A stretch of 64,000 bases of DNA from contig CAVXJF010000012.1 in NCBI GenBank assembly GCA_963762055.1, positions 47,695-111,694 of the forward strand, in the 5' to 3' direction. The notes beneath the pieces are model-generated. The model was not told the origin of the DNA and did not search any database. It saw nothing but the letters and a program-made list of their open reading frames with translations. This DNA comes from Vicinamibacterales bacterium (GTDB lineage Bacteria > Acidobacteriota > Vicinamibacteria > Vicinamibacterales > JAMQPK01). Of the stretch, positions 26,185 to 28,272 are shown piece by piece. The translations under genes were made by a program, and so were the position numbers. The first letter of the stretch is position 1. Each line of letters starts with the position of its first letter.

Positions 26185-28272
26185 TTACGCCACCGGCTGA
26201 GACTTCTTCAGCCCCTGGATCTGAAGGACCGGCGCCTTCGGCGCCTCTTTCAGCACGTGCTGCCGGTAGAGATCGGCCATCTGCCGGTGATGCGCGTCAT
26301 CCTTGAGCTTGTCTTCGAGCGACTTCTCGTTCTCCTTCGCGCGCGCGGCGATCTTCTCTTCACGCGCGTTGCGTGCGACGCCGGCGAGCACCAGGTCCTG
26401 CTGTTCGCCCACGGCCACCGCTTCGGCATTCAGCTTCAGCGCGTGTTCCGTCGTCGGCAGCGGCACCGCCTTGTTGCCCGCGAAGATCTCGTGGCGGCCG
26501 TGGTCTTCGTACCACTTCGTGAGCGTGGCCGTCATGTGCATCTTCTCGATGATGTTGCGCCAGCCGATGCCGGTGTTATAGGCGCAGAAGGAGATTTCTC
26601 CCTGCTGCGTGGCATACGGGATGATGCACATCTCCGTGCGGCGGAAGTCGTAGTTGAACAGGTCCTGGAACCACATGCCCGCGATGAACAGGAAGTTCCA
26701 CCGATCCTGGCGGCGGACGTCGATATCCTGCGCCGTGCGGTCTTTGCCGACCTTGCCGTAGTTCTTGCCCGTGGCGCCGAACGTCTTGTCGAACTTCTTC
26801 ATCAGGTCGATCAGCTTGAAGTGCTTCGGCGCCTTGAACGGATCGTAGTTGCGCATCAGCGCCAGCGCCATGCCGACGACCGACAGGAACTTGCCCCGGC
26901 CGGCGTCGTTGACCTGCGCAAGGTCCTTCGCGAGCTGCTCGGCATGGAGGAACGCCGTGACGGGGACGGCTTCCTTCGTCTGCTTGTCGATCATCACCGC
27001 CATGCCCACGCCGCAGTTCGGGTGGCAGCCGCAGGTGAGGTTGCCCCACTGCGCATCCGGCCCGTGAACCGTGTCGGCCCAGTCGGTGAACGTGCCCATG
27101 AACGAGATCGGGAACCAGTCGCGGACCGGCTCGCCGAGGCCCGTCTGGTTCTTCACGTCGTGCGCGAGGTGCGACAGCGTGTAGCGCTGCGCCGCCCGGC
27201 GCTCGGGCGTCACTTCTTCGTCGCGGCCGGTGAACGACACCGGCTGGAACGATAGGAAGTTGATCTTGCGGGGGTTGTCGAGCGCGAACTCGATGATGCG
27301 TCCCACCTGCTCGTTGTTGACGCCGTTGACGATGGTCACGACCGGCACGATGTCGACGCCGTTGTTCCAGAGGTTTTCAATCGCCTGCAGCTTGACGTCG
27401 AACAGGTTGCCGACGCGGCGGTGCGAGTTGGCAGCGTTGCCGATGCCGTCGAACTGCAGATACGCGTACCGCAGGCCCGCTTCGGCCGCAGCCTTCGCGA
27501 ATTCCGGGCTCTTGGCGAACTCGATACCGTTGGTCGCGGCCTGTACCGAGTTGTAGCCGACTTCGCGCGCGTAACGCACCGCGTCGAGGAAGTACGGCGA
27601 CATCGTCGGCTCGCCACCGGAGAACTGCACCGACATCTGGCGGCGCGGCTTGATGGTGATGGCGTTGTCGAGGACCTGCTTGATGTCCTCCCAGCTCAGC
27701 TCGTGGACGAAGCCGACCTGGTTGGCGTCCATGAAGCACGGGTCGCACATCATGTTGCAGCGATTGGTGAGGTCGACGGTGAGCACCGAGCCGCGGCCGT
27801 GCTTGATGGTGCTGCTGCCATGGTTGTGGAGCTTCTCGTCGTTGTGCGCCGCGATGTCGCGGCCGGGGAACACCTGCTCGAGGTGCTTGAAGAACTCCGT
27901 ATCCATCGCCATGACGTCTTCGAAATGGCCGTGGAGCGGGCAGTCCTTCACCATGAGAATCTTGCCGTCGCGCTCGAGGATCGTGGCGGGAATTTCGCCG
28001 ACCTTCTCGTGCAACAGCATCGACACGTCCTGCTTGCCGTCGAGGATCGCCTGCCGCGCCTCGCGCACGCAGACCGGACACAGCGAGTCGGTCTTGCGCG
28101 GCCAGCCCAGCGGCGGCTTGGTTTTCTGCCACGACTTCAGCAGGGGTTTGTCAGACCACTTCGGGATAAACGACGGTCCGGGATTGATGCGGTTGACGGT
28201 GTTGAACAGCGACCACGCGCCGTTGGCCGCGAAGGCCAGCCCCTTCTCGAAATACTTGATTGGCGGATGCAT
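26185..28272 (-). CDS. Radical SAM protein, MJ0619/Tes (tetraether synthase, GDGT-MAS) family homolog
   Basis: N-terminal TDSLCPVC...KDCPLHG, VDLTNRCNMMCDPCF, QFSGGEPT, YLQFDG, TCGCHPNCG, GMWFQDLFNYD..R..MC, ISFCAYN. Confidence 0.85.
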   Translation of the reverse strand: MHPPIKYFEKGLAFAANGAWSLFNTVNRINPGPSFIPKWSDKPLLKSWQKTKPPLGWPRKTDSLCPVCVREARQAILDGKQDVSMLLHEKVGEIPATILERDGKILMVKDCPLHGHFEDVMAMDTEFFKHLEQVFPGRDIAAHNDEKLHNHGSSTIKHGRGSVLTVDLTNRCNMMCDPCFMDANQVGFVHELSWEDIKQVLDNAITIKPRRQMSVQFSGGEPTMSPYFLDAVRYAREVGYNSVQAATNGIEFAKSPEFAKAAAEAGLRYAYLQFDGIGNAANSHRRVGNLFDVKLQAIENLWNNGVDIVPVVTIVNGVNNEQVGRIIEFALDNPRKINFLSFQPVSFTGRDEEVTPERRAAQRYTLSHLAHDVKNQTGLGEPVRDWFPISFMGTFTDWADTVHGPDAQWGNLTCGCHPNCGVGMAVMIDKQTKEAVPVTAFLHAEQLAKDLAQVNDAGRGKFLSVVGMALALMRNYDPFKAPKHFKLIDLMKKFDKTFGATGKNYGKVGKDRTAQDIDVRRQDRWNFLFIAGMWFQDLFNYDFRRTEMCIIPYATQQGEISFCAYNTGIGWRNIIEKMHMTATLTKWYEDHGRHEIFAGNKAVPLPTTEHALKLNAEAVAVGEQQDLVLAGVARNAREEKIAARAKENEKSLEDKLKDDAHHRQMADLYRQHVLKEAPKAPVLQIQGLKKSQPVA

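What the first reader, a model, noticed from the sequence alone, without database searches (positions are those of the whole stretch)
26185..28272. Tetraether-synthase (Tes/MJ0619)-family radical SAM enzyme in a probable Vicinamibacteria genome
Seen: N-terminal CPVC...CPLH (rubredoxin-like ligands), CxxxCxxC, an internal CHPNC and C-terminal MxFQDxxNxDxxRxxxC and FCAYN motifs. Established: this layout matches archaeal Tes/GDGT-MAS, which joins lipid tails by C-C coupling, and Acidobacteria are the main suspected producers of branched GDGTs. Differences from the archaeal pattern as I recall it: MCIIPY has one Cys instead of CCIHY, and there are a ~55-aa N-terminal extension and a ~90-aa charged helical C-tail. 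Inference: candidate membrane-spanning lipid synthase with an altered auxiliary-cluster ligand set. It is intact and monocistronic.
Basis: partly seen in the sequence, partly recalled or inferred. Interest (0 to 1): 0.75.

Follow-up and report, generated by a model that had tools for sequence, protein, structure and literature searches.

The report
Acidobacterial Tes-like lipid-coupling radical SAM gene
This intact, stand-alone gene of a soil acidobacterium (Vicinamibacterales) encodes a very conserved relative of the archaeal enzyme that welds two lipid tails together; it is a good but untested candidate for the enzyme that makes the membrane-spanning lipids behind a widely used palaeoclimate proxy, an idea already published in general form.

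Summary
It is a true structural homologue of archaeal tetraether synthase GDGT-MAS/Tes (7TOL: E 9e-68; AF2 model pLDDT 88, TM 0.89). It is not a member of Tes proper. It scores 321 bits against a 450-bit NCBIfam cut-off. In a tree it falls in a 100/100-supported sister clade. It also lacks the CPxxCGxCxxH motif of the N-terminal auxiliary 4Fe-4S cluster, where a conserved His-rich loop sits instead. The rubredoxin-like site, the radical SAM cluster, the SAM-binding residues and the C-terminal cluster (C420, C549, C563, Met533, Tyr553) are all kept. The "one Cys instead of CC" difference is trivial, because most Tes have one Cys there. The clade evolves very slowly. It is found in 183/201 Terriglobia, 118/121 Blastocatellia and 36/37 Vicinamibacterales, and in 0/151 Holophagae. 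That matches the reported spread of iso-diabolic acid (subdivisions 1, 3, 4, 6). No neighbour is conserved, and this genome has no PlsAR/GeR or ElbD-like ether-lipid gene. Best reading: Tes-type tail-to-tail coupling of iso-C15 chains into iso-diabolic-acid lipids, inferred and not shown. It is a new member of a known, uncharacterised kind.

The parts
26185..28272 (-). Tes-like radical SAM gene, 695 aa (P0001)
   Evidence: Single open frame on the minus strand. Pfam Radical_SAM plus Zn_ribbon_HMPTM. 7TOL E 9e-68. AF2 pLDDT 88 and Foldseek TM 0.89 to 7TOL.
28102..28272 (-). Clade-specific N-terminal extension (residues 1-57), with a helix at 4-27 and the conserved DKPLLKSWQKTKPPLGWPR stretch
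   Evidence: Absent from MJ0619. pLDDT 90-96. Residues 41-60 are 84% conserved over 103 orthologues.
27931..28080 (-). Rubredoxin-like mononuclear iron site: C65, C68, C111, H114
   Evidence: Invariant in a 43-sequence alignment across both clades. Aligns to Mj C9/C12/C33/H36.
27793..27852 (-). His-rich loop (residues 141-160, AAHNDEKLHNHGSSTIKHGR) in place of the N-terminal auxiliary 4Fe-4S motif
   Evidence: No Cys here. CPxxCGxCxxH is found in 0 of 89 clade loci and H.HG[ST] in 87 of 89; all 7 acidobacterial true Tes keep the Cys motif. pLDDT 61-69.
27736..27759 (-). Radical SAM cluster motif C172-x3-C176-x2-C179, followed by F180
   Evidence: Invariant. Aligns to Mj C98/C102/C105/F106.
26584..27015 (-). 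C-terminal auxiliary 4Fe-4S cluster region: C420, Met533 (labile ligand), C549, Tyr553, C563
   Evidence: Aligns to Mj C338, M439, C455, Y459, C470. At least 90% conserved across both clades. Segments 521-580 are 92-96% conserved within the clade.
26188..26511 (-). C-terminal extension (about residues 588-695), including the charged helix 636-672
   Evidence: No counterpart in MJ0619. Helix predicted, with falling pLDDT. Poorly conserved, 22-51%.
26109..26142 (-). Intrinsic-terminator-like hairpin after the stop codon
   Evidence: 15-pair stem with 8 GC pairs, followed by a T-rich tail (TTTTCTTTCT).
28273..28298 (-). 5' leader with the Shine-Dalgarno sequence AAAGGAG, overlapped by the 16-bp palindrome CCTTTGGATCCAAAGG
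   Evidence: Read directly from the sequence. Its function was not tested.

Best explanation
The gene encodes a radical SAM enzyme of the Tes/GDGT-MAS fold, from a bacterial sister clade found across most Acidobacteriota. It most likely joins the terminal (omega) carbons of two iso-C15 chains of membrane glycerolipids, giving iso-diabolic-acid membrane-spanning lipids. That C30 chain is the one found in brGDGTs.

Inferred mechanism, by analogy with GDGT-MAS:
1. The C172/C176/C179 cluster cleaves SAM.
2. The 5'-deoxyadenosyl radical abstracts H from a terminal methyl carbon.
3. The substrate radical is parked on a sulfide of the C-terminal auxiliary cluster (C420, C549, C563, labile Met533).
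4. A second SAM makes a radical on the second chain, which attacks the C-S carbon and forms the C-C bond.

Electrons would enter through the rubredoxin-like iron (C65, C68, C111, H114). The second surface cluster of the archaeal enzyme is absent.

Shown here: homology, fold, ligand and SAM-site conservation, clade membership, and distribution among genomes. Inferred: the substrate, the product and the chemistry.
For: Fold and sequence:
- 7TOL E 9e-68.
- AF2 pLDDT 88, pTM 0.87.
- Foldseek TM 0.86-0.89 to 7TOM/7TOL, while the next radical SAM enzymes reach only about 0.5.

Catalytic residues named in Lloyd et al. 2022 (PMC9433317) are all conserved: F106/R210/Q268/S271/R275 map to F180/R286/Q343/S346/R350, M439 to M533 and Y459 to Y553. 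The three C-cluster Cys are kept.

The helical region that forms the second lipid pocket in GDGT-MAS has a counterpart here: helices 444-521 at pLDDT 80-97.

Distribution at E<=1e-150:
- Terriglobia 183/201, Blastocatellia 118/121, Vicinamibacterales 36/37, Holophagae 0/151.
- Named carriers: Chloracidobacterium validum/thermophilum, where iso-diabolic acid is a primary fatty acid (PMC12816986); Tunturibacter/Edaphobacter; Acidipila rosea.
- Named genomes without it: Geothrix oryzae, Mesoterricola sediminis, Thermotomaculum hydrothermale.
- This matches iso-diabolic acid being reported in subdivisions 1, 3, 4 and 6 (PMC13159169).

Other points:
- Chloracidobacterium has no 'true Tes', and Acidobacteria have no Mss (PMC13159169), so another coupling enzyme is needed.
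- Purifying selection is strong: 252 of 695 positions are at least 99% identical over 103 sequences.
- GDGT-MAS itself binds ester-linked phosphatidic acid (PMC9433317).
Against: - No bacterial Tes homologue has ever been shown to make a membrane-spanning lipid (PMC11868695). A different Tes homologue, from Thermoanaerobacter ethanolicus, gave none in E. coli (preprint 10.1101/2022.04.21.487849).
- The distribution match is essentially one deep split (three sister classes versus Holophagae). It may reflect shared ancestry, and many other genes would share the pattern.
- There is no lipid gene nearby and no conserved operon.
- The protein is outside the Tes equivalog and lacks one cluster whose role is unknown.
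[quoted passage not shown] 2018, which I could not read here.
Confidence: 0.55

Rival explanations
1. It is a Tes-fold radical SAM enzyme that modifies a lipid or other hydrophobic substrate by different chemistry. Examples would be an intramolecular macrocycle, a cross-link, or a C-S or C-C bond on another membrane component, rather than intermolecular coupling of two iso-C15 tails.
For: It sits in a sister clade, not in Tes proper. It has lost the N-cluster and gained a conserved His-rich loop and two extensions. Acidobacteriota that have a 'true Tes' may also carry this gene (G063, G280), which suggests non-redundant roles. GDGT-MAS itself makes two products, macrocyclic archaeol and GDGT (PMC9433317).
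Against: Every residue known to matter for Tes chemistry is kept. No alternative substrate is suggested by gene context. Hopanoids were not examined here, and I know of no other lipid trait that tracks these classes.
Confidence: 0.25
2. It is a bona fide tetraether synthase that acts on iso-C15 diether lipids to make brGDGTs directly, the pathway proposed for Solibacter usitatus.
For: Halamka et al. 2022 proposed that one or both Tes homologues of S. usitatus condense diethers (PMC10087280). A MAG labelled Candidatus Solibacter usitatus carries this clade (L063).
Against: The window's genome has no HGD-D (PlsAR/GeR) hit and no ElbD-like multidomain reductase, so no known route to diether substrates. 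The clade is near-universal in classes where most cultured members make ester-bound iso-diabolic acid rather than abundant tetraethers.
Confidence: 0.12
3. It has no lipid role. It would be a cofactor or small-molecule enzyme (the old MJ0619 annotation as a pterin methyltransferase, still used by JGI), or a peptide or protein maturase.
For: JGI names many orthologues 7,8-dihydro-6-hydroxymethylpterin dimethyltransferase. The second-best NCBIfam hit is the uncharacterised TrsS, at 213 bits.
Against: The pterin annotation of MJ0619 was overturned by structure and activity (PMC9433317). There is no precursor peptide or cofactor pathway gene alongside. The fold matches GDGT-MAS over its whole length.
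Confidence: 0.05

Closest known systems
GDGT-MAS / Tes of Methanocaldococcus jannaschii (MJ0619; PDB 7TOL, 7TOM; Lloyd et al. 2022; Zeng et al. 2022; NCBIfam NF045702)
   Same: Whole-length fold (TM 0.89). Rubredoxin-like Cys3His iron. CX3CX2C radical SAM cluster. SAM-binding F/R/Q/S/R residues. C-terminal auxiliary cluster with three Cys, the labile Met and the conserved Tyr. A helical region corresponding to the second lipid pocket.
   Different: 29-39% identity and below the equivalog cut-off (321 versus 450 bits). Sister clade in the tree. No N-terminal auxiliary 4Fe-4S motif (a His-rich loop instead). A 56-aa N-terminal and an approximately 93-aa C-terminal extension. Bacterial host with ester-linked fatty-acid lipids. 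Much slower sequence evolution.
'True Tes' homologues of Acidobacteriota (e.g. loci L086-L091; the Koribacter/Solibacter type of Zeng et al. 2022)
   Same: Same phylum, same superfamily, and also proposed for brGDGT synthesis.
   Different: Those are 540-590 aa, score 500-620 bits, keep CPxxCGxCxxH and cluster with archaeal Tes. They are only 32-37% identical to the window protein.
Mss, the membrane-spanning lipid synthase of Thermotoga maritima and Thermoanaerobacter ethanolicus (Sahonero-Canavesi et al. 2022)
   Same: The function proposed here, tail-to-tail coupling of fatty acyl chains into (iso-)diabolic acids by a radical SAM enzyme, is the one demonstrated for Mss.
   Different: Mss was found as a separate radical SAM protein, not through a Tes homology search. 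It is reported only in anaerobes and not detected in Acidobacteria (PMC13159169). It was not compared by sequence here.
TrsS radical SAM (seleno)protein (NCBIfam NF045646)
   Same: Second-best family hit, covering residues 93-567.
   Different: 213 bits against a 490-bit cut-off. To my knowledge its function is unknown.
Terriglobus roseus paralogue WP_014786616 (P0137)
   Same: Same superclade, without the N-cluster motif; 41% identity.
   Different: Lacks the three C-terminal cluster cysteines. It lies among relaxase, integrase and coupling-protein genes, probably as cargo of a mobile element.

Membership tests
Tes / GDGT-MAS equivalog (NCBIfam NF045702) | Whole-protein score at or above the curated cut-off (450 bits) | tested here: not met
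   321.6 bits. The same value came from the genome scan. Control archaea and seven acidobacterial genes pass.
Tes / GDGT-MAS equivalog (NCBIfam NF045702) | Groups inside the clade that holds MJ0619 in a phylogeny | tested here: not met
   ML tree of 54 proteins: the window lies in a 34-row clade separated from the 20-row Tes clade with 100/100 support.
Tes / GDGT-MAS equivalog (NCBIfam NF045702) | N-terminal auxiliary [4Fe-4S] cluster ligated by C73, C77, C80 and a His | tested here: not met
   The aligned segment has no Cys. The motif is absent in 0 of 89 clade loci and present in 7 of 7 acidobacterial true Tes.
Tes / GDGT-MAS equivalog (NCBIfam NF045702) | Rubredoxin-like CX2C...CX2H iron site | tested here: met
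   C65, C68, C111 and H114 are invariant.
Tes / GDGT-MAS equivalog (NCBIfam NF045702) | Radical SAM CX3CX2C cluster and SAM/5'-dA binding residues (F106, R210, Q268, S271, R275) | tested here: met
   C172/C176/C179 and F180, R286, Q343, S346, R350.
Tes / GDGT-MAS equivalog (NCBIfam NF045702) | C-terminal auxiliary cluster with three Cys, the labile Met439 and the conserved Tyr459 | tested here: met
   C420, C549, C563, M533 and Y553 by alignment. Ligation geometry was not checked in 3D.
Tes / GDGT-MAS equivalog (NCBIfam NF045702) | Overall four-domain fold | tested here: met
   Foldseek TM 0.86-0.89 normalised to 7TOM/7TOL, E 1e-36 to 1e-37. The N-cluster subdomain is modelled as a low-confidence loop.
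Tes / GDGT-MAS equivalog (NCBIfam NF045702) | Two hydrophobic lipid pockets meeting at the SAM site and the C-cluster | tested here: inconclusive
   The corresponding helices are present at high pLDDT. Model coordinates cannot be read, so no cavity could be computed.
Tes / GDGT-MAS equivalog (NCBIfam NF045702) | Catalyses Csp3-Csp3 coupling of two lipid tails | not testable with these tools
   No experiment on any member of this clade was found in the literature searched.
Pfam architecture Zn_ribbon_HMPTM (PF23545) + Radical_SAM (PF04055) | Both domains above their gathering scores | tested here: met
   52.9 bits (cut-off 27) and 65.5 bits (cut-off 29.5).
TrsS (NCBIfam NF045646) | Score at or above 490 bits | tested here: not met
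   213.3 bits.
Mss membrane-spanning lipid synthase | Sequence homology to Tmari_0825 and the T. ethanolicus Mss | not tested
   No Mss sequence or model was available here. The literature reports no Mss homologues in Acidobacteria (PMC13159169).

The most novel reading that the evidence does not exclude
This pan-acidobacterial Tes-like clade has no N-cluster. It would be the long-sought enzyme that makes the iso-diabolic-acid / brGDGT C30 core in aerobic soil Acidobacteriota.

The published conclusion that only 3 of 14 iso-diabolic-acid producers have a Tes homologue, and therefore use an unrelated pathway, would then be an artefact of stringent search thresholds. On this reading the clade is present in about 94-98% of Terriglobia, Blastocatellia and Vicinamibacterales genomes.

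It would also show that Tes-type C-C coupling needs only two 4Fe-4S clusters plus the rubredoxin iron.
Probability: 0.42. Interest if true: 0.8.

Novelty: new member of a known kind. Interest (0 to 1): 0.5.

Why it matters
brGDGTs are among the most used terrestrial palaeotemperature and pH proxies. The organisms and enzymes that make their membrane-spanning C30 chain are still not established. Bacterial Tes homologues have been proposed since 2022 but never tested.

Two things become clearer once this clade is recognised as distinct, with near-universal presence in subdivisions 1, 3, 4 and 6, absence from Holophagae, and one cluster fewer than the archaeal enzyme. It gives a sharply defined gene to knock out or reconstitute. 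It also gives a better genetic marker for surveying likely producers in soils and lakes.

The window's copy adds nothing beyond its many orthologues. The value lies in the family.

Tried and rejected
- Gene-neighbourhood inference. ORFs from 81 loci with 8-kb flanks were clustered. Beyond ORFs overlapping the gene itself, no family occurs in more than about 12 loci (MsrPQ upstream in about 12, ypdA-like in about 10). Nothing is lipid-related.
- Supplementary tables. I looked for the lists of acidobacterial Tes hits in Sahonero-Canavesi (Table S21), Zeng and Halamka. They are either not held or lack the species lists.
- Naming cultured carriers with a second homologue search, seeded with the Acidipila orthologue. 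Almost only MAG names came back.
- The look-up of sequencing runs, for expression evidence.
- The Terriglobus roseus genome could not be searched whole. The exact-protein look-up returned only metagenome or run contigs.
- The idea that MCIIPY versus CCIHY changes the ligand set was rejected after seeing single-Cys Tes sequences.
- Horizontal acquisition was considered and judged unlikely. The gene tree groups the window with other Vicinamibacterales, and gene GC (0.63) equals window GC (0.62).
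Full report
**Observation.** The interval 26185-28272 contains one long ORF, but on the minus strand; the plus-strand frame carries a stop. It encodes 695 residues.
- CPVC (65-68) and CPLH (111-114)
- CNMMCDPC (172-179)
- CHPNC (416-420)
- MWFQD...C549 (MCIIPY)
- FCAYN (C563)

An AAAGGAG ribosome-binding site lies 8 nt upstream of the ATG. 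A strong hairpin with a T-rich tail (stem 26142-26109) follows the stop codon by 43 nt. The upstream gene is divergent, so the gene is intact and stands alone.

**What it is.**
- Pfam finds Radical_SAM and the Zn_ribbon_HMPTM domain typical of MJ0619-like proteins.
- The best solved structure by sequence is GDGT-MAS/Tes of M. jannaschii: 7TOL, E 9e-68, residues 93-587.
- An AlphaFold2 model built on a 43-sequence alignment is confident: pLDDT 88.2, pTM 0.87.
- That model matches 7TOL/7TOM with target-normalised TM 0.86-0.89. All other radical SAM structures reach about 0.5.
- Using the residue roles given by Lloyd et al. 2022 (PMC9433317), the alignment maps as follows:
  - the rubredoxin-like site to C65/C68/C111/H114
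  - the radical SAM cluster to C172/C176/C179
  - the 5'-dA/SAM contacts F106, R210, Q268, S271, R275 to F180, R286, Q343, S346, R350
  - the labile Met439 to M533 and the conserved Tyr459 to Y553
  - the three Cys of the C-terminal auxiliary cluster to C420, C549, C563

**What differs.**
- The NCBIfam Tes equivalog scores 321.6 bits, below its 450-bit cut-off.
- The stretch that binds the N-terminal auxiliary cluster in MJ0619 (GCPYDCGLCPNH) aligns to a Cys-free, His-rich loop, AAHNDEKLHNHGSSTIKHGR. That loop is modelled with low confidence.
- In 89 loci of the window's clade the Cys motif never occurs, and H.HG[ST] occurs in 87. All seven acidobacterial genes that pass the Tes cut-off keep CPxxCGxCxxH.
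True Tes sequences normally have one Cys there.
- The 56-aa N-terminal extension is confidently modelled (helix 4-27) and partly well conserved. The approximately 93-aa C-terminal tail is helical, charged and poorly conserved.

**Phylogeny.** It splits with 100/100 support into two clades:
- a Tes clade, holding MJ0619 and the acidobacterial 'true Tes'
- a second clade without the N-cluster motif

Within the second clade, the window's own group (25 rows, 100/100) has end branches of 0.03-0.15. In Tes proper they are 0.6-1.9. Across 103 orthologues from three classes, 252 of 695 positions are at least 99% identical, and pairwise identity to the window is 63-94%. The window genome has a single copy.

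**Distribution.**
- The protein has more than 8000 database relatives. The top ones are named Vicinamibacterales or Acidobacteriota.
- One genome per species was scanned. At least 599 species encode a relative; the 80 best-matching loci (73-94% identical) are kept. They span Vicinamibacteria, Terriglobia (Acidobacteriaceae, Bryobacteraceae, Solibacter) and Blastocatellia.
- Whole-genome scans at E<=1e-150:

| Group | Genomes with the gene | High-quality genomes |
|---|---|---|
| Vicinamibacterales | 36/37 (E<=1e-20; one of these, G307, at only 5e-34) | not tallied |
| Terriglobia | 183/201 | 166/176 |
| Blastocatellia | 118/121 | 111/113 |
| Holophagae | 0/151 | 0/94 |

  - Genomes lacking the gene include Geothrix oryzae, Mesoterricola sediminis and Thermotomaculum hydrothermale.
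  - Carriers include Chloracidobacterium validum/thermophilum/aggregatum and Tunturibacter/Edaphobacter, plus Acidipila rosea.
- The literature places iso-diabolic acid in subdivisions 1, 3, 4 and 6 (PMC13159169) and names it a primary fatty acid of Chloracidobacterium (PMC12816986).
- Chloracidobacterium has no gene above the Tes cut-off, and Acidobacteria have no Mss.
- The match is suggestive but rests on one deep phylogenetic split, so it is weak statistically.

**Context.**
- Neighbours in the window: a Ser/Thr kinase with TPR repeats downstream, beyond the terminator; a divergent ypdA-like flavoprotein; DUF6162; znuABC.
- No neighbour is conserved across 81 loci.
- The window's genome has no HGD-D domain (PlsAR/GeR). 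Its NAD_binding_4 hits are all single-domain proteins of about 350 aa, so none is ElbD-like. An ester-linked product is therefore more plausible here than a tetraether.

**Literature.**
- Zeng et al. 2022 found 456 bacterial Tes homologues and proposed a role in brGDGT synthesis.
- Halamka et al. 2022 invoked them for Solibacter.
- Sahonero-Canavesi et al. 2022 found Tes homologues in only 3 of 14 iso-diabolic-acid producers under stringent criteria, and proposed an alternative pathway.
- Their preprint reports that a T. ethanolicus Tes homologue made no membrane-spanning lipid in E. coli.
- As of 2025-2026, reviews and surveys still call the bacterial homologues unconfirmed.

**Earlier notes of this scan.** Notes on orthologues in other genomes reached the same reading. 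I treat them as non-independent.

**Verdict.** The gene is an ordinary member of a known but uncharacterised, pan-acidobacterial, cofactor-reduced sister clade of Tes. Its most likely function is Tes-type tail-to-tail coupling of iso-C15 chains into iso-diabolic-acid lipids (confidence about 0.55). The leading rival is a different reaction on a lipid or other hydrophobic substrate.

Noticed in passing
window 28589-29634 (+): The divergent ypdA-like pyridine-nucleotide disulphide oxidoreductase is split by a frameshift near 29272-29283. Orthologue residues 1-230 and 234-343 align in different frames.
   Followed up: partly
window 20618-23971 (+) and 30486-31268 (+): A TonB-dependent receptor / OMP beta-barrel gene is split into two ORFs (20618-22105 and 22313-23971). 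The ZnuA ORF starts at profile position 24. Together with ypdA this suggests indel errors in the assembly or recent pseudogenes. The Tes-like gene is untouched.
   Followed up: no
window 28283-28298 (-) and 28420-28560: A perfect 16-bp palindrome, CCTTTGGATCCAAAGG, overlaps the Shine-Dalgarno sequence of the Tes-like gene. GTAGCC-rich repeat units lie further upstream. An earlier first-stage note flagged this as a possible regulatory hairpin or operator.
   Followed up: no
window 26143-26184 (-): Three copies of GTCGACAGTC lie between the stop codon and the terminator hairpin.
   Followed up: no
L106/L107 6001-7875 (Terriglobus roseus protein WP_014786616, P0137): A 41%-identical paralogue lacks all three C-terminal cluster cysteines. 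It is flanked by a TrwC relaxase, two tyrosine integrases and a TraG/TrwB coupling protein, so it is probably cargo of an integrative conjugative element.
   Followed up: partly
L102, L103, L105 (unnamed Acidobacteriota genomes of families f41 and f52; f41 lies in Blastocatellia): Many Blastocatellia genomes carry a second copy of the same superclade, 50-54% identical to the window protein. It keeps all metal ligands and the His-rich loop.
   Followed up: partly
window 27793-27852 (-), residues 141-160: A conserved His-rich loop (H143, H149, H151, H158) replaces the N-terminal cluster motif. It is a possible alternative metal or partner-binding site and is modelled with low confidence.
   Followed up: partly
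L013, L017, L022 (records titled Betaproteobacteria, proteobacterium, Bifidobacteriaceae MAGs): Orthologues 80-85% identical appear in MAGs labelled as other phyla. In the tree, L013 nests among Vicinamibacterales. Mis-binning or mislabelling is more likely than transfer.
   Followed up: no
window 36455-37207 (+): A glycerophosphodiester phosphodiesterase (GDPD) gene lies 8 kb away. It is common and is not conserved next to the Tes-like gene elsewhere.
   Followed up: no
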